DNA from: Rhynchobatus australiae
Lineage: Eukaryota
Direction of reading: 5' to 3'
DNA: 64,000 nt
NCBI GenBank assembly: GCA_034780895.1
Contig: JAUZTB010000057.1
Coordinates: 23,209,451-23,273,450, forward strand
The position numbers and the translations under genes were made by a program. Below are positions 1,721 to 58,219 of the stretch, in pieces (the first letter of the stretch is position 1; each line of letters opens with the position of its first letter). Under the pieces are notes generated by a model. It was not told the origin of the DNA. It saw only the letters and a program-made list of their open reading frames with translations, and did no database searches.

Positions 1721-3891
1721 CCATTCTGCCCTTGAGGAAAAAGGTTCTCGATGAGCAGATGATTCAGAGACCAAGTGAAAAGGTGTGAGGTTTCATAATT
1801 TAGGTAATAAGCATTGGTGGTTTGATGGGCGGCACAACATGGTGGGCCAAAGGGCCTGTATTGTTCTATGGTTCTAAGCATTATGGAATTATTGTCATGA
1901 TAAACTTTAATGGACCATTTATTTTATAAACTACATCTGAAATTGCTGATGATAACAAAGTACATTTACCTTGTAAGTTTAGTATTGGTGTGAATCAACT
2001 TCTACCAAATTGGCAGTGAAGTCAAACCTGATACAATCTGAAACAATGGAGTGAGGAACTTTCCAAATGCAATAAATCCACACCTCCTTAGTTTAAATCC
2101 CCAGATAGTCAAGAGGACATTCAGTTGACAAGCAGTTTTCAAACCCTTATTTATATGTTAAAATTCAGAAACTCTCTCCTTTCCAATCTCTAGGCATTTA
2201 AATTTATAACATGTATCCAGGCATGTAGTGACCTCTCTCATTCCTGGATAGGACATTTAAGCTTCCAGTCAGGCTGGAGCCAAGCATCCTAAGCCCGAAG
2301 CTAAAATGCCAAAACAGATCAGTGCAAATACAATCAGAAGGCATTAGAATACTTGTGTAAACCCAGCTTGCAATCTGTGTAGAAGTATAGTTCATAGTCA
2401 GGCATTATATTTAAAACATTTAAAATTTAAATATCAGAATAAAATTATTTTTATCAATATTCTGTTGTAATATCTCAAATAGGTTTGGCTTTATGTAAAT
2501 TACTACAGGTTTTAAAGGGAAATAAATAGGGAAAATTAATACAGATTAAAATAAGAAAGTCAAGAGACCATTGAATAGCCATCAAATTGAGCAAGTTTGC
2601 TACTATACAAATGCTTTTAATAATACGACAGAAAACATGGATACTTAATAGACATTTTGCAGAACAGAGGATTTTAAATGGTGGCAAATACCTAGAGGAC
2701 AGTGTAGTAAAGGGTTCTTATACACACATCCCCTCCCACTCCTTCATGAGGTTCCACTACCCAAGCTTTGATTATAATAAGCCAACATTTGCCAGCACAA
2801 GCAATCTGGATGAGAGTTTAATTGCTGTACTTCAGATATTTTATGACTACAATTTATTACCTAATTTCCTTTTCCAACAAGGATAGACATCAGGTAGTTT
2901 AACTAGAACCTGCCGTTAGCAAAAAAGGCAAATAAATCAGCAATATGGAAAAATCAAAGATGTATTATAACAGAATTTACTGATAAATGTCAAAAAATGT
3001 TTCAGAAGAGAAATTAAAGATGTCATAAAACATGTGCTTTGTGTTTTCTTATTATATCTGCTAACTTTTTTTATTCAGCAAGATCACATACAAGGTTCAG
3101 GAACCCCAACCCCTCCCTGCCCTCTCCTCTCACTTTCAAATAATTTTTTTTAAGTACATTACAGACACCAGTATTTGCCTGTAATATGCACAACTTGTTT
3201 AAAAGGCTCCTCCAAAAACAGTCNNNNNNNNNNNNNNNNNNNNNATGCATGCCAATAAAGATGACTCATAACTTAAAATTCATTTACCATTACTCGTCTT
3301 CTTTCTTCTTGCCTCAATAGATGGCAAATTGCAAAATAGATATCACAGTGTGTGGTACTGTAAATTCCTTAAATCTATTTTTCATATCCAAAATACTGCA
3401 CATAATGGAAAAATGAAATTAAACAAGGTGCTGGAATTAATCACCCACCTCCAGTCTCTTGTATAAGCCTCCCATGGCTTTGCAGAGAGCTACCTGAATA
3501 ACAAGTTTCCACACTGCTGCTGTGTAACAAATATGCTTTGGACAGCTCACATTATTGACTTGAAATGTTAATTTTGTTTCTCTCCCCTATAGACCCTACC
3601 TAAACTGCTGAGTAATTCCAGCACTTTGTTTTATTTATCATATGCTGAGCCTGTAAGCACAAACTGGCCCACAGGAGTTAGCTGAAAAAGGGGAGCTTTG
3701 CCTTGTTCCACAAACTATGATGTTTTATAGTCCATTTATCGACATTGTATTAGTCCTGGATTTTCACTTACTATTTATGGTGCCTAACCATGCAGGGCCA
3801 TCTTCCCTTTCAACAATTTTCAGAGGAATTTAAGTAATAATAGAGACAGAGATCTGTGGGACCTGAAGTGCCATTATGGAGTTTACCTTAC

Positions 3892-4090
3892 CTGCAAAAT
3901 CAAGCCCTTTATCAACATGTTTAACTCTGTAATGTGCTCTCAAGATGACAGGATCCTGGTAGGCTTCGGTCACACTACAAAAGGGACAGTGCATGTGGCT
4001 ACCTTTAGGATTAGCAGAACATTTCTCATCCTGGCAGAGAACTGGGTTGTAGTTATGCTCTGTTCCTTTAACCCTCACTGATGGATGAGT
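3892..4090 (-). CDS. Internal coding exon of an uncharacterised zinc-finger protein (THPSVRVKGTEHNYNPVLCQDEKCSANPKGSHMHCPFCSVTEAYQDPVILRAHYRVKHVDKGLDFAG)
   Basis: Acceptor ttttatacacag|ACT at 4091 and donor GCAG|gtaagg at 3891. Open frame of 199 nt with C-x4-C, H-x-H-C-x2-C and H-x4-H spacing. Its phase-0 start matches the phase-0 end of exon 8122-8174. No next exon was found in 1-3891. Confidence 0.85.
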
Positions 4091-6359
4091 CTGTGTATAA
4101 AAATCAAGGTAGAAAACATGATTAGAGAAATGTAATTTAAACCCCCACTTCAAAANNNATTCAGTTGTCAATACAATATTTTTGATGTTACAGTACACTC
4201 TCATTCAGTTCAATTTTTGAAACAAAATATGTAGACTATGGTGAGATGGGGAAAAAAAATGGCACACATACATAAAACGGGGATTGCACATCAGAGATCA
4301 AAAGGGATACCAGGGTAGCAGGCACTTTATTTCAGCTGGAGAGGCGCTGGAAAGGGATAGAACTCAAGGCAAAAAAATTGAATTCTTTTTGAAAGAAAAT
4401 TAATTTGGATGCACTCATGCTTAAGTGGAGAAATCTAAGGCACCATCCAGTACTGAAATCCTTTCACTGCGTCTGTGCTGTCAACCAATTTGTTTAAAGT
4501 TGTGAAATTGTAAAGCTGAGAGTTGTCAAAATACAGAGCCTCCCATCTTCAGCTGAATTTTCAGATGTAGTTGAGAAACGAGTTTTGGACTGATCTTTGG
4601 AAAATTTGAGACATGACGTGAAAAAAAGCGTAACTATCATTAGCAATGCTCAGGCTGTGACCCAGTAAGTGAAAAAGCAGCCAACAAAAGGCTGTTCCAC
4701 TCAGCTAGAAAAGCAAGTGGCTTTGATTAGGATGTTGTAATCCACATTTCATATTGTAGGTTAGAGAGGTCAAGGAGAGCAAAGGACTATGCTTCCCAGT
4801 CCGAGTCACAGTCATGTGGGATTTAACTTTGAATTTTGATTTATGCCGCTTTAGTATTGAATCAGAGAGAAAAATCAGATGGGAAAAGATTCAATAATGA
4901 AGCTGATGGCAAGACAAGATTGAATTTGACACTTTGACATGATCAAGGATCACAAAGGACAGGTGATCAAAGATGAGAAGAGGAGGTAGCCTGCAAGTTC
5001 AATGGGTTTGAGGGCAGTATTTTTGAGTTGGGATGATGACAGCAGTTCCTAAAAGATGGCAGTACGTGAGGAAAAGAAACCATTTCTTGTCAGTGAGTAT
5101 GGGGGCCAGTAAGGGAAGTTGTGTTTCATAATTTGGTAAGAATTGAGTTGAGAAAGCAGGATATAGGTCTAATAGACATGTGCAACATTAACAGGATGAA
5201 GCGAGGAAAATGTTGGTTCAGAGGTAGGACAATAGAGCAGAAACAGCCAGGTTAATGGGGTCTATATCTTAGTGACACTGAAGTCCATGAACTCCATTTG
5301 TTTGCTGCAAGAGAGATTAAAATTCTCAGTAACAGCTGTTGCACATACTGGATTCTGGTTAATTTTGTTGGAGTGAAAATCCACACTGCATAGAGAGATA
5401 CAGGAGATTGTTACTAAAATATTAGATTCATTTGATTTACTAAAATTTTTAACTGCCCAACTGTCAAAAATTATATTTGCAATTTGGAAGAAAAATGTTT
5501 CCATTAAATGAACTCCATTAAGCTGAATTTCTTCTCTGTAAACTAAACAACCTAAATATATCCCTGTTGACAATCTTCACCTTCACAGAAATTCACTGAT
5601 TAATTTCTCGATGCAGACTTCCATGCTGTTATTTATAATCTGGGATTTCTAAACATGTTATCCATTTTTAAATTTTAAGTTTTGCTTTTCCGTAATTGGA
5701 TTAATGGAACATTCATTTCTCACTCATTAACTGAGAAAACAGCATCATTACAATGGATTATCAATTTTATTAAGAGTATTTGAAAAATGAAATATCTAAA
5801 ACTGCCCACTGAAAGTTGTATAAGGTCACCATGATGACTGGCACTTCTAAAGTACAGTGCAACCTCAATATAATGCAGGAGACAGCTTTAACACCTGTAT
5901 TATAAGTTATCCAACTATCATCATTTTTAAAATTTTATAATTAAACCATCACATTTGTCTTTGCTTTTGGAACTGTTATGTTTCATTTGAGAAAGGCAAG
6001 TCCAATTCAGCTCATGACCAACTGATCAATATTTTCTGAATCATTGACAAAATAATGGCAGCGTCGTCAACAGAGGTGTCAAGCTACATTTATTCACTAA
6101 TAACCAGTTATCGATGCCCAATCTCAATTTTGCAGCACTCTTTTACAATCCTAATCAAAGCCTTCTGCAAACGTTGACCAAAGAGCTGAATTCCAGAGCA
6201 GAGGTGAAAGTGACTGCCCAGGACGTCAAGGCAGCATTTAGCCAAGTGCATCAAGAAGCCATGATAAAACTGAAGTTAATGGCCACATGGGAAACAACTC
6301 CAATAGTCAGAGTTATACCTTGCACAAAAGAAAGATGGTTGCATTTCAGAATTCAGATT

Positions 6360-21559: not shown

Positions 21560-22230
21560 AACTCGGTCCTTCAGATGGCTGGGAGCAGCGCGGGAGGGTC
21601 GACCATAAACAATTGCAGAAGGAGAGAATAAAAATTCCTGCGCTTGCACCAGGGCGCTTTAACCTCAGTAGTGCCGAAGAGGCACTGAGTGGACAACGGG
21701 TCACCAGGGCAGGTTAGCGATCTGAGTAGGTGGCCCTGCACTGGGAACTAAAACCCACGGCGTTACATCTAAAGGGGTCTGGCAGGGATACCCGCCATTT
21801 TAGGAATGCCTCGCAGGCCGCACACACGGCGCCGGCCCGCTGCCCGCTCAGCCTGCACCGGGTACGGTACTCACAATGAAAGCTGTCATATCCCTCCTCC
21901 AATTCCGAGCGGGACCCCCCGCTCCACCATTTGGCGGTTTATTGGTTAAAAAGTCAGCATCACCTCCGCCGACTTCATTTTGTGTGTGCTCGTCATCGGA
22001 TTCAACCCAACGGCGAACTCTGACTACGTCATCTTCGGGCGGACCGCAGAACAACCCGAGCCCGAGCTTCGGCTCCCGCTCCGAAAGGAGCCGAATCAGC
22101 GTCCGGCTCTCCCGAAGATTTACGAAGTTGGCACGAAGGCTCGCCGGGTCTCTCAGTGCTTGGCGCCGCACTCGGAGTCTGCAACTTGCAACAGAATCTA
22201 TTTGTGTCGACTGGCCAAGGTTATATTAAC
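21560..22230 (-). promoter_or_regulatory. CpG-island promoter and probable first (largely non-coding) exon of the minus-strand zinc-finger gene
   Basis: GC/CpG-rich island in AT-rich surroundings. Minus-strand donor CATT|gtgagtac at 21874, CCAAT (attgg at 21941-21945) and a YY1-type motif ccgccatttt at 21792-21801. Linkage to the 8.1 kb exon is inferred. Confidence 0.6.
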
Positions 22231-29216: not shown

Positions 29217-29223
29217 TATAAAA
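29217..29223 (+). promoter_or_regulatory. TATA box of NEFH
   Basis: TATAAAA about 50 nt upstream of the ATG at 29273, in a locally CpG-containing segment. Confidence 0.75.
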
Positions 29224-29272: not shown

Positions 29273-30313
29273 ATGAGTTACAGTCTGGATACAATGTTCG
29301 GCACCAGCTCCTACCGCAGGATACTGGGGGACTCACCCCGGCCCGCGTCCCGCTCCGCAGGCTCTTTAGCAAGTAGCGGCTTCCATTCACAGACCTGGTC
29401 CCGGAGCCCCAGCACAATTACCTCCTACAAACGGGTTACCCCAAGCCTGACTGCCAACTTCAGCTCTCAGATCACAGCCTCAACCGAGAGCCTGGAATCC
29501 GGGGCCATAAATGGAGACATTAGATCGCGCAACGAGAAGGAGATGCTACAGACCCTGAACGATCGCTTCGCTACTTATATCGACAAGGTAAGGAACCTAG
29601 AGCTTCAGAACAAGAGTCTGGAGGCAGAGGCCGCTTCCCTGAGGCAGCAGCAAGCCGGCAGATCGGCCATAGGGGAGCTGTACGAGAGAGAAATCAAAGA
29701 CCTGCGCAATGTAGTGGTGCAGATTAGCAATGACAAGGCGCAACTACAGCTGGAGCAGGAACACCTGGAGGAGGACATCCAGCACATCAAGCAGAGATAC
29801 GAGGATGAGAGCAGGATGAGGGAAGAGATCGACGCCAGTATCAGAGCCCTGAGCAAGTACATTGAGGATGCGGGCTTGACAAAGCTAGACTTGGACAAGA
29901 AGCTCCGTTTCCTCACCGACGAGGCTTCTTTCATGAAGGCGAATCACGATGAGGAAGTTCGAGATTTGCTGAATCAGATCCAGGGCTCACAGGTAACTTT
30001 GGAAGTGAGGGATTCTTTGAAGTCTGATATCACGGCGGCTCTCCGAGAGATCCGAGCGCAGATGGAAGGTCATGCAGTCAAGACCACCAGTCAGACCGAG
30101 GAGGTGTTCAAAGTGAAGCTCGAGAAACTCAACCAAGCCGCCAAGGTCAACACCGACGCCATCCACGCAGCCCAGGATGAAATCTTAGAGTATCGCAGAC
30201 ATCTGCAGTCCAAGAACACCGAACTGGAGACGCTGAAGGGGACAAAAGACTCATTGGAGAGGCAAAGGATTGAGATGGAAGACAGACACAATGCGGATAT
30301 TTCCAGCTACCAG
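29273..30313 (+). CDS. NEFH: Neurofilament heavy chain, exon 1 (head and most of the rod)
   Basis: Intermediate-filament LNDRFATYIDKVR motif. AAKVNTDA...KDSLERQR...EDRH.ADI.SYQ matches the recalled NF-H rod. Donor TACCAG|gtagtc at 30314. Adjacent to THOC5 as in mammals. Confidence 0.93.
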
Positions 30314-30576: not shown

Positions 30577-30701
30577 GATGCGACACAACAACTTGAAAAC
30601 GAATTAAGAAATACAAAATGGGAAATGGCTGCGCAACTCAGGGAGTACCAAGACTTACTCAATGTTAAAATGGCCTTGGATATTGAAATTGCGGCTTACA
30701 G
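30577..30701 (+). CDS. NEFH: Neurofilament heavy chain, exon 2 (end of coil 2B)
   Basis: ttgcag|GAT...TACAG|gtatgg, 125 nt. Encodes [42 protein letters not shown]; EMAAQLRE is the NF-H form (NF-M has EMARHLRE). Confidence 0.95.
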
Positions 30702-30984: not shown

Positions 30985-31500
30985 GCACAAAAAAAGTACG
31001 GGAGTTGGGACGTCGTGTTACAGCTGTACAAGGTGTTGGTGAGACCGCACTTGGAATATTATGTGCAGTATTCTGATCACCTGGGTTTGGAGGGATATCA
31101 TTAAAATGGAAAGGCAGAAAAGACACAAGAGGACGTTGTGGGGACTGGAGGGCGTGAGCTATAAAGAGAGATTGGATAGATGTGGACCTTTTTCTCCCCT
31201 GGAGCATAGGAGGCGGAGGTTAAAACATTAGAGAGGTTTATAAAATCACCAGGGGCATAGATATGGAGATGGTCACACTCTTTTCCCCAGGGCAGGGAAG
31301 TCTAAAACTAGAGGGCATAGGTTTAAAGTGAGAGGGGAAAGATTTAAAAGGTATCTGGTGAGCAACATTTTAGCACAGAGAGTGGTGGTCTATGGAATGA
31401 GCTGCCAGAGGAAGTGGAAGAGGTGGGTACAATTCCAATATTTAAAAGACATTTAGATAGGTACATGGACAGGAAAGATTTTGAGGGAAATACACCAAAC
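30985..31500 (+). mobile_element. CR1/HER1-type LINE fragment in NEFH intron 2
   Basis: ctagagggcataggtttaaagtgagagggg...tggaatgagctgccagaggaagtgg; homologous to 18733-19367 and 54073-54661. Confidence 0.85.
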
Positions 31501-31807
31501 ATGTCCTTTAACTCTTGAGCCATCGCAGCAAACCTTGTCTGCAGAACTGAACAAAAGCAACAATGCCAGAAATATACAACAGATGAGTTGTCATCACAAA
31601 GAGGCATGGTATCTTCTTCCATTGCAACCCTATTTCTGTTTCATGAGGCAATGGTCTGCCACGCACTTCTACCATTTTAACTTCTGATGCACTTGTCCTC
31701 AATATTTTTCTTGTTGATCATTGATAACATAAGATTCAGAATTGTAAAGTATAAACAACAATCACGTTGGTAATAATGTATTACTATTGTCATCTTATTT
31801 TGTAAAG

Positions 31808-32863
31808 GAAACTTCTGGAGGGTGAAGAATCAAGATTTATTGGGACAAGTCCCTATTCTTCTATTGAAGGGTATCATAAAGTTCCCTCATTGCCAAACCA
31901 TATTAAACCCAAGCCTGATGAAACAGCCAAACCAACTGAAAAAGAGGCAGATGAAGTGGTTGCAGAAGAGCAAGTGGATGAGAAAGTAACTACAACTGAA
32001 GGAGCTAAAGAATCCGAAGAGGCTGAAGAAGAAAAGGAGGGGGAGGAGGAAGAAGAAAAGGAGGAAGCAGCAGAGGAAGAGGCTGGCAAAGCAGAATCCG
32101 AGGACAAACAAGAAACAAAACCTGATGAAGAAAGTACGAAAGAAGAAGACACTAAAAGTGAAAAAGCAGAGGAGGAAGAGAAAGGAAAAGAAAAATTAGT
32201 CGATGAAGAAGACGTGGAAAAGGGAAGCAAGGAACAAGCAGAGGAAAAGCCTGCCAAAGATCAAAAGGAACTAACGATAAAGGTGGAAGATAAAACACCA
32301 GAAGAACCCAAGGAGAAAGAAAGCCCAGAAAAGGAGCCAGAGACTAAAGAAAAAAAGAAGGAAACAGAGGAACCCTCTGAACTAGAATCTGAAACCAAAG
32401 AGAGAGAAGAGGAAAAGGAATCAAAAGTAGAACACAAGGATGAAGAAAAGGAAGATGCAAAACCAGAGCCCAAACCTGAAGAAAAAGAGGTGAAAAAAGA
32501 TGCAAAACCAGAGGCTAAACCTGAAGAAAAAGAGGCTAAAAAAGATGCAAAAGCAGAGGTCAAACCTGAAGAAAAGGAAGTGAAAATAGATGCAAAAGCA
32601 GAGCCCAAACCTGAAGAAAAAGAGGTAAAGAAAGATGCAAAACCAGAGCCCAAACCTGAAGAAAAAGAGGTGAAAAAAGATGCAAAAGCAGAGCCCAAAC
32701 CTGAAGAAAAAGAGGCGAAAAAAGATGCAAAAGCAGAGCCCAAACCTGAAGAAAAAGAGGTGAAAAAAGATGCAAAACCAGAGGCTAAACCTGAAGAAAA
32801 AGAGGTGAAAAAAGATGCAAAACCAGAGGCTAAACCTGAAGAAAAAGAGGTGAAAAAAGATGC
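31808..32863 (+). CDS. NEFH: Neurofilament heavy chain, exon 3 (KLLEGEE, Glu-rich segment and repeat tail); truncated by a gap, true stop unresolved
   Basis: Acceptor tgtaaag|G AAA CTT CTG GAG GGT GAA GAA. Open frame continues to the N-run at 32864-33474. Confidence 0.92.
32454..32863 (+). repeat. Coding minisatellite with a 45-bp unit (DAK[P/A]E[P/A/V]KPEEKE[V/A]K[K/I]); 9 full units plus the start of a 10th before the gap
   Basis: Unit gatgcaaaaccagagcccaaacctgaagaaaaagaggtgaaaaaa repeats at a 45-nt period. Confidence 0.95.
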
Positions 32864-33785
32864 NNNNNNNNNNNNNNNNNNNNNNNNNNNNNNNNNNNNN
32901 NNNNNNNNNNNNNNNNNNNNNNNNNNNNNNNNNNNNNNNNNNNNNNNNNNNNNNNNNNNNNNNNNNNNNNNNNNNNNNNNNNNNNNNNNNNNNNNNNNNN
33001 NNNNNNNNNNNNNNNNNNNNNNNNNNNNNNNNNNNNNNNNNNNNNNNNNNNNNNNNNNNNNNNNNNNNNNNNNNNNNNNNNNNNNNNNNNNNNNNNNNNN
33101 NNNNNNNNNNNNNNNNNNNNNNNNNNNNNNNNNNNNNNNNNNNNNNNNNNNNNNNNNNNNNNNNNNNNNNNNNNNNNNNNNNNNNNNNNNNNNNNNNNNN
33201 NNNNNNNNNNNNNNNNNNNNNNNNNNNNNNNNNNNNNNNNNNNNNNNNNNNNNNNNNNNNNNNNNNNNNNNNNNNNNNNNNNNNNNNNNNNNNNNNNNNN
33301 NNNNNNNNNNNNNNNNNNNNNNNNNNNNNNNNNNNNNNNNNNNNNNNNNNNNNNNNNNNNNNNNNNNNNNNNNNNNNNNNNNNNNNNNNNNNNNNNNNNN
33401 NNNNNNNNNNNNNNNNNNNNNNNNNNNNNNNNNNNNNNNNNNNNNNNNNNNNNNNNNNNNNNNNNNNNNNNNNNAAGGGGCTGGTAAGCAATAGACATTC
33501 ACTAAAGAGGCAGATGAATGCATCGTGATAACTTATATAGCAGAATGTGATGTATGCAGAATGCTAAGCACTTGAAGAGTATGAATACTTATCCTGCCTC
33601 ATTAATAAGTGCATTTAAGATGACTGATTGTTTGAGGTATATCTATCACCTACAGATAAAGAGTATTTGCTGAGTTATATTAATCAAATAATGAAACAGC
33701 CATGATTTAAACCTAAAAAGTCACATTCACGATTTAAAATATGCACCAACAAATACTGTCAATTACTTACAAAGTGCAATATATA

Positions 33786-33791
33786 AATAAA
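33786..33791 (+). terminator. Probable NEFH polyadenylation signal
   Basis: AATAAA directly after a GTGCAATA element, similar to the recalled end of the mammalian NEFH 3'UTR. A second AATAAA lies near 33906. Confidence 0.55.
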
Positions 33792-56640: not shown

Positions 56641-57049
56641 CTGCGAAGAAAAAAAGTTTTTATTTTTCCAACCAATATAGAGACATGATATGAGAATATT
56701 TAGACTCTAAATTCCTTTCTCCCATCAGATTTGCCTCATATTTTAGGAACCATAGGTAGAGAGTAATCATACTGTTTGATGGATGAAAATGACTTTAATG
56801 AAGTGGTGACTGATGGTGCAAATGTTCATCTCTGCTAGCTGAGTTATCCACAAATTATTAGAGGAAGGAGATCATTTAACACATCTTTGCTCATCAGCTT
56901 AGGAAAAGTTAGGAATGAATTGTGGCAGCATCATTAATGGTCATGAAACACCATGCCTCCAATGAACAGTCTCACTAGCATATCTGTGACGTAGTCGTGT
57001 TGTTTCGATTGGCACACTGAAGTGAAAGGTACTGAAAGAAAGCACTTAC

Positions 57050-57151
57050 CCAACTTTATCAAACTGATACTGATTAGCTGGATTTGGAGTCTTCTTGCCA
57101 TGGTCCCCAGGATACAGACAACTCAGTAGTGAGGCTGGAGACAATAGATCT
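57050..57151 (-). CDS. THOC5: THOC5 exon ([34 protein letters not shown])
   Basis: tgtag acceptor, gtaagt donor, 102 nt; contains the conserved LYPGD.G...PNPAN motif. Confidence 0.94.
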
Positions 57152-58219
57152 CTACATTCATAAAATATTTTAAGAAATGTGGANNNNNNNNNNNNNNNNN
57201 NNNNNNNNNNNNNNNNNNNNNNNNNNNNNNNNNNNNNNNNNNNNNNNNNNNNNNNNNNNNNNNNNNNNNNNNNNNNNNNNNNNNNNNNNNNNNNNNNNNN
57301 NNNNNNNNNNNNNNNNNNNNNNNNNNNNNNNNNNNNNNNNNNNNNNNNNNNNNNNNNNNNNNNNNNNNNNNNNNNNNNNNNNNNNNNNNNNNNNNNNNNN
57401 NNNNNNNNNNNNNNNNNNNNNNNNNNNNNNNNNNNNNNNNNNNNNNNNNNNNNNNNNNNNNNNNNNNNNNNNNNNNNNNNNNNNNNNNNNNNNNNNNNNN
57501 NNNNNNNNNNNNNNNNNNNNNNNNNNNNNNNNNNNNNNNNNNNNNNNNNNNNNNNNNNNNNNNNNNNNNNNNNNNNNNNNNNNNNNNNNNNNNNNNNNNN
57601 NNNNNNNNNNNNNNNNNNNNNNNNNNNNNNNNNNNNNNNNNNNNNNNNNNNNNNNNNNNNNNNNNNNNNNNNNNNNNNNNNNNNNNNNNNNNNNNNNNNN
57701 NNNNNNNNNNNNNNNNNNNNNNNNNNNNNNNNNNNNNNNNNNNNNNNNNNNNNNNNNNNNNNNNNNNNNNNNNNNNNNNNNNNNNNNNNNNNNGACACCA
57801 GAAGGCATGCTTATAAAATTCTATCCAACTCCAGTGACTGAAAAACTGACTATAATACACTCATGAAAGTAGTATAGGGTTAACAAGAGTTTTTGCACCA
57901 GAAGTCATGTTTACTGAATGCAACCCAGATTATTCATAGGTGGCAGAATTTCCACTGATTAAAATTGATTACTTTTTGTGATAAACCCATCCCAAGGGAG
58001 ATTGATAAAACTCAGTCAGACTTTCACTTTTAAATATATCAACAATAGTGTCTAAAGGAAAGAAAAATAAAGCCATTACAGTGCCCTACCATAATGGCTC
58101 ACTGTGGACTTTATATCTGTGATTGTATACTTACTGATCCAGTCCAAAGCAGAAACACTACCTTTGCAAGGCTATACTGACAGATATAATGTTTGGGGTT
58201 CATTCCCCCCAGCTCTTAC

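What the first reader, a model, noticed from the sequence alone, without database searches (positions are those of the whole stretch)
32454..33474. NF-H side-arm built from a Ser/Thr-free, charge-neutral 15-aa repeat instead of KSP repeats
Seen: at least 9 tandem units of DAKPEPKPEEKEVKK (5 acidic and 5 basic residues per consensus unit, no S/T/Y). There is no KSP anywhere in the visible tail, only isolated KTPEE and ESPEK sites just before the array. Known: mammalian NF-H tails carry dozens of KSP sites whose phosphorylation adds negative charge and is linked to side-arm extension and axonal filament spacing. Inference: an independently expanded, phosphorylation-independent polyampholyte spacer, i.e. 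a different solution to neurofilament spacing. The near-identical units suggest recent concerted expansion and possible length polymorphism. The 611-N gap hides the rest of the tail.
Basis: partly seen in the sequence, partly recalled or inferred. Interest (0 to 1): 0.7.

Follow-up and report, generated by a model that had tools for sequence, protein, structure and literature searches.

The report
Ray neurofilament tail missing phosphorylation repeats
The heavy neurofilament gene of a cartilaginous fish, probably a ray, carries a real charge-balanced 15-residue repeat that is likely just an enlarged piece of the end segment these proteins normally have; the odder point is that the phosphorylation repeats of bony vertebrates are missing from their usual place, and likely from the whole tail, though a gap hides about 200 residues.

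Summary
The repeat is real: 9.2 copies of 45 bp, 92% alike, no Ser/Thr/Tyr, balanced charge, in the last exon of a true NEFH orthologue. It is not a stand-in for the KSP array. In 65 bony-vertebrate NF-H tails the order is acidic segment, KSP array, then a neutral KEP segment. The repeat has KEP composition and position, and similar Ser/Thr-free tandems occur in the KEP segment of mormyrid, pipefish, whitefish and glassfish. Three related species share the array, so it is not a one-species expansion. What is unusual is the missing KSP array: only KTP and ESP lie where it should be (2 S/T-P sites against 7 to 32), and relatives have no insertion there. About 500 bases of non-array sequence lie unseen in the gap, so a late KSP block is unlikely but not excluded. 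The filament is not free of such sites: this genome's NF-M has seven EEKLSPK copies. [quoted passage not shown] Verdict: a new variant of a known protein, of moderate evolutionary interest.

The parts
29217..29223 (+). TATA-like box upstream of the start codon
   Evidence: sequence; function not tested
29273..30313 (+). NEFH coding exon 1 (head and most of the rod, 347 aa)
   Evidence: PF00038 E 8.6e-74; NF-H clade 100/100
30577..30701 (+). NEFH coding exon 2 (rod end, NF-H-type EMAAQL signature)
   Evidence: AG/GT ends and frame read from the sequence
31808..33494 (+). NEFH last coding exon (tail); its end is uncertain
   Evidence: AG acceptor at 31806-31807, KLLEGEE in frame; stop inferred
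31947..32291 (+). acidic E segment of the tail
   Evidence: net charge -33 over the first 155 tail residues; composition
32292..32327 (+). the only two distal S/T-P sites (KTP, ESP), about where bony-vertebrate KSP arrays lie
   Evidence: KTP reads KMP in organism C
32452..32863 (+). 45-bp / 15-aa tandem array, at least 9 units, KEP-type
   Evidence: tandem also in organisms B, C, D
32864..33474 (.). assembly gap; probably the end of the array plus about 500 bases of non-array tail
   Evidence: 611 N; X1 record 4 leaves the array and runs 524 letters on; an X3 contig runs 260 letters in from the right; letters not shown
33477..33494 (+). likely C-terminus GAGKQ and stop
   Evidence: in frame with the tail at the nominal gap size; two other frames are possible
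33786..33791 (+). candidate poly(A) signal AATAAA
   Evidence: untested
57031..57162 (-). exon of the downstream neighbour THOC5, tail to tail with NEFH
   Evidence: PF09766 over cut-off

Best explanation
This is the NF-H gene of a cartilaginous fish whose 15-residue array is likely a tandem enlargement of the ordinary neutral KEP end segment, in a tail that likely has no KSP array at all. Shown: NEFH orthology, the array, its KEP-like composition, only two S/T-P sites at the usual KSP place, and the same layout in three relatives. Inferred: the array grew by unequal crossing-over in a segment that tolerates length change; it is predicted to be a disordered, evenly mixed polyampholyte that lengthens the side-arm at all times, without a kinase switch; the gap would hold a few more units, about 165-175 residues of normal KEP sequence and the conserved C-terminus. 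Proline-directed phosphorylation of the filament would fall mainly on the NF-M EEKLSPK array.
For: Tree: window inside the NF-H clade, 100/100, with a whale-shark protein. 66 of 68 NF-H-type tails have at least 4 K[ST]P; arrays start 55-146 residues after LLEGE; in the 65 kept, a neutral segment of 130-273 residues follows. The repeat scores -359 bits under KEP composition against -450 (KSP) and -445 (E); no 30-residue window scores as KSP. Charge pattern: repeat FCR 0.66, NCPR -0.007, kappa 0.015; KEP segments median 0.57, -0.005, 0.025. 16 of 68 tails have a tandem after the KSP array, 8 of them free of S/T/Y. S/T-P in tail residues 20-345: window 2, orthologues 7-32. Organisms B, C, D: indels listed upstream are at most 15 bases, tandem joints present. 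45 residues before the array plus about 170 after give a KEP segment of usual length. Only 1 of 65 tails has 4 or more K[ST]P in its last 170 residues. NF-M: 21-bp unit x 7.5 against one SPK in five skate-type NF-M records, none in two other chondrichthyans.
Against: No full chondrichthyan NF-H tail was found, so segment order is extrapolated from bony vertebrates, mostly teleosts, that are not independent. A profile of the first KSP site did not pick out ESP above shuffles (495 of 500 scored as high), so 'vestige of the array' is by position only. The S/T/Y-free run (145 residues visible) is longer than in any of 65 orthologues (maximum 97). One search hid 10 difference rows and skipped 32024-32074 in C and D. 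Two whitefish records also lack KSP, probably faulty gene models, not checked.
Confidence: 0.72

Rival explanations
1. A KSP array lies inside the gap, after the repeat, so the tail is a rearranged but functionally ordinary NF-H.
For: About 500 non-array bases lie in the gap, room for 10-20 KSP; 66 of 68 orthologues have an array.
Against: Only 1 of 65 orthologues has 4 or more K[ST]P in the last 170 residues; the unseen length is what the KEP segment and C-terminus need.
Confidence: 0.15
2. One reading: the array replaced KSP under selection as a phosphorylation-independent way to space neurofilaments.
For: KSP missing and array present in four species; charged positions constant in 8 of 9 units; evenly mixed charge favours expansion (PMC11151108 passage on a shuffled NF-M fragment).
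Against: Same kind of tandem occurs in teleosts that keep KSP; the mouse NF-H tail is dispensable for calibre and for most spacing (PMC2174004 abstract); NF-M here has its own SP array; unit likeness follows from homogenisation alone.
Confidence: 0.08
3. The unit is a former KSP unit that lost its serine and was then homogenised (AKPE for KSPE), so the array is the KSP array's descendant.
For: The array begins only 45 residues after ESP and within the span where orthologous arrays end (116-265); AKP recurs in many units.
Against: Composition favours KEP by about 90 bits, though part of that comes from the lack of serine itself; xKP motifs are common in true KEP segments.
Confidence: 0.05

Closest known systems
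NF-H (NEFH) of bony vertebrates: gar, paddlefish, teleosts, turtles; mammals (PMC2174004 abstract: 44-51 KSP)
   Same: Rod, rod-end signature, acidic segment, neutral KEP segment, long tail, THOC5 neighbour (the human arrangement is recalled).
   Different: No KSP array at the usual place; 2 S/T-P sites against 7-32.
KEP segment of NF-H (named in PMC10758125 figure legend and PMC11251467 passages) and its tandem expansions in mormyrid (P0003), pipefishes (P0096, P0120), glassfish (P0055), whitefish (P0020)
   Same: S/T/Y-free, net-neutral K/E/P tandems in the same segment; a common human KEP deletion is reported (PMC11251467 passage).
   Different: Longer (at least 135 residues against 42-82 for the S/T/Y-free ones), different unit, and most of those fish keep KSP.
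Lamprey NF-180 (Jacobs 1995; seen only as a title in the reference list of PMC4569278)
   Same: A long neurofilament side-arm without multiphosphorylation repeats.
   Different: NF-180 is NF-M-like; PMC4569278 states that no lamprey NF-H was found.
Non-mammalian NF-M
   Same: KSP-poor long tails: 0 of 48 have 4 or more K[ST]P.
   Different: Separate clade, EMARHL signature, acidic tail with a different C-terminus.

Membership tests
NEFH orthology group | Intermediate-filament rod | tested here: met
   PF00038 249 bits
NEFH orthology group | Rod groups with NF-H, apart from NF-M, NF-L and internexin | tested here: met
   18-row clade 100/100; five own-genome paralogues fall outside
NEFH orthology group | Rod-end signature EMA[A/S]QL rather than EMARHL | tested here: met
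NEFH orthology group | THOC5 downstream on the opposite strand (human arrangement recalled) | tested here: met
Canonical KSP-bearing NF-H side-arm | Acidic E segment after the rod | tested here: met
Canonical KSP-bearing NF-H side-arm | KSP array between E and KEP segments | tested here: not met
   0 KSP, 1 KTP, 1 ESP; no insertion in three relatives
Canonical KSP-bearing NF-H side-arm | KSP array anywhere in the tail | tested here: inconclusive
   gap letters not seen
Canonical KSP-bearing NF-H side-arm | Neutral KEP segment | tested here: met
Canonical KSP-bearing NF-H side-arm | Conserved KSSSTD-type C-terminus | tested here: inconclusive
   expected in the gap; genome search with the paddlefish end found nothing
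Canonical KSP-bearing NF-H side-arm | Heavy tail phosphorylation in axons | not testable with these tools
   needs nerve phosphoproteomics

The most novel reading that the evidence does not exclude
NF-H is older than its KSP array: cartilaginous fishes as a whole have a KSP-free NF-H, the array was added in bony vertebrates, and this ray lineage built its proline-directed phospho-array on NF-M instead while enlarging the unregulated KEP segment of NF-H. Rays would then be a natural KSP knockout in a myelinated vertebrate.
Probability: 0.3. Interest if true: 0.65.

Novelty: new variant of a known kind. Interest (0 to 1): 0.38.

Why it matters
What KSP phosphorylation of NF-H is for is still open, since tail-less mice are nearly normal. 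A vertebrate lineage whose NF-H lacks the array, while every intact bony-vertebrate tail examined here keeps it, would date the array and offer a natural comparison for brush physics, axon maturation and phospho-NF antibodies. The repeat itself matters little: it shows that the KEP segment expands easily.

Tried and rejected
No RNA holder listed; run X2 has no cover over the intron, not used as evidence of expression. Summed contig depth over one unit is far above the flank in X1, X4 and X7 and would suggest 5-13 more units in X1; depth is no copy number, so it is a hint only. No full chondrichthyan NF-H tail from three protein searches or the representative search (one short fragment). The Atlas gave no answer. 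Metagenome scans: no match to the unit, one distant locus. Genome search with the paddlefish C-terminus: nothing. Profile of the first KSP site: no support. Pairwise BLASTP of tails: uninformative. No structure prediction was run, the tail being low-complexity. Earlier scan notes: nothing relevant. Paper searches for chondrichthyan NF-H or KSP evolution listed no paper on this tail by title or abstract start; most subscription papers of the 1980s-90s on fish neurofilaments are outside the library, PMC6569803 was not held, and no supplements were read, so absence from print is not shown.

Full report
Observation. The array is there as described: period 45, 9.2 copies, 92% matches at 32452-32863, ending at a 611-N gap. 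Nine whole units encode variants of DAKPEPKPEEKEVKK; 8 of 9 have five acidic and five basic residues and none has S, T or Y. The unit occurs nowhere else in the assembly. The visible tail (344 residues after LLEGE) has no KSP; its distal S/T-P sites are KTP at residue 155 and ESP at 164, and the array starts at 209.

The gene. Three coding exons lie on the + strand (29273-30313, 30577-30701, 31808 onward). The best named hits to exon 1 are coelacanth (71%), bowfin and gar NF-H and a whale-shark protein (78%). In a tree of 33 rod sequences the window falls in an NF-H clade with 100/100 support, apart from five paralogues of its own genome; its NF-M groups with skate NF-M (95/92), so the animal is probably a ray. 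A sixth paralogue (L015) was left out of the tree because of a gap in its rod. THOC5 lies downstream on the other strand. The NF-H label is sound.

Where the repeat belongs. Of the best 120 long homologues (243 found), 4 were skipped for lack of a parsable rod end, 48 were NF-M-type and 68 NF-H-type. These are ray-finned fishes and turtles, no mammals, and many are close kin. 66 of 68 have at least four K[ST]P; the two without are whitefish gene models that look truncated (not checked). The array starts 55-146 residues after the rod. Dropping those two and one record with an aberrant end leaves 65, all with a net-neutral segment of 130-273 residues after the array. Reviews call it the KEP segment (PMC10758125 legend, PMC11251467 passages). 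The window's repeat fits KEP composition by about 90 bits over KSP or E composition, and has the same charge pattern. Tandems in this segment are common: 16 of 68 tails, 8 without S/T/Y, in mormyrid, whitefish, glassfish, notothen and pipefishes. So a neutral, serine-poor polyampholyte is the normal end of NF-H, and the array is a large example (145 S/T/Y-free residues visible against a maximum of 97).

What is missing. Tail residues 20-345 hold 2 S/T-P sites in the window and 7-32 in the 65 orthologues. Contigs of three related organisms laid on 31700-32498 show the same layout: B differs by 10 letters in 671, C by 42 in about 780, D by 38 in about 740; listed indels are at most 15 bases; all show tandem joints of the unit. 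In C the KTP reads KMP; no change is listed at ESP, with 10 rows hidden. The array therefore predates these splits, and the lack of KSP at this place is not an assembly fault. That KTP and ESP are remnants of an array rests on position only; a profile test failed.

The gap. It is not all repeat. The letters were not shown. About 165-175 unseen residues, added to the 45 between ESP and the array, give a KEP segment of usual length. Only 1 of 65 orthologues has four or more K[ST]P in its last 170 residues. I put a hidden KSP block at about 15%. At the nominal gap size the frame ends GAGKQ-stop, about 950 residues in all (inference).

How it likely works. The tail is predicted to be a disordered side-arm: an acidic base (net -33, orthologue median -41), no switchable block, then a long evenly mixed polyampholyte. 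Even charge mixing expanded an NF-M fragment, and a pure unphosphorylated NF-H brush is collapsed until phosphorylated (PMC11151108 passages), so this tail would add reach at all times, not on a kinase signal; this is inference. A role in setting spacing is doubtful: mice without the NF-H tail keep calibre and the spacing of most filaments, with slower maturation (PMC2174004 abstract and passages), and NF-M KSP mutation leaves calibre unchanged (PMC10758125 passage). The filament is also not free of proline-directed sites: this genome's NF-M has EEKLSPK about seven times, where five skate-type records have one copy and horn shark and elephant shark none. The visible NF-H tail keeps 14 S and 14 T, ten in CK2-like context (motif recalled).

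Comparison and novelty. It is a member of the NEFH group but not a canonical KSP-bearing side-arm at the place tested. A long neurofilament arm without multiphosphorylation repeats is known from lamprey NF-180 (title only), which is NF-M-like; no lamprey NF-H was found (PMC4569278 passage). Whether the KSP array was lost in these rays or never present in cartilaginous fishes could not be decided, as no other chondrichthyan tail was retrieved. Five paper searches listed nothing on this tail, with the limits given above.

Verdict. Observation confirmed; interpretation partly supported. The repeat is an ordinary kind of KEP expansion; the KSP-poor NF-H is the real finding, a new variant of a known protein. 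Interest 0.38, rising to about 0.65 if the absence holds across cartilaginous fishes.

Noticed in passing
L013:3760-3916 (G000:C75, NF-M last exon): 21-bp unit x 7.5 encoding EEKLSPK, a lineage-specific SP array on NF-M; skate-type NF-M records have one copy.
   Followed up: partly
L014 and L015 (G000:C77:24463500-24502200): Two further long-tailed neurofilament-type genes in tandem, tails of about 525 and 430 residues with no KSP; L014 falls outside both the NF-M groups and the NF-H clade on a long branch.
   Followed up: partly
L015:7907-8184: Another 45-bp / 15-residue S/T-free tandem (6 copies, acidic, VEAKDEGKVEEAEEK-like) in a paralogous tail.
   Followed up: partly
L007 (G000:C9951): A second NF-L-like gene on a small unplaced contig, grouping with the C75 NF-L-like gene.
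   Followed up: no
window 21851-22225 (-) and 3833-4204 (-): Open frames that look like exons of an upstream gene on the other strand; no Pfam match.
   Followed up: no
window about 31000-31500: Intron 2 holds what looks like a fragment of a LINE-type interspersed repeat (by eye, recalled likeness).
   Followed up: no
P0012-P0017, P0030, P0033: One salmonid NF-H copy has tandemly repeated its conserved C-terminal KSSSTEVKDE motif 6-9 times.
   Followed up: no
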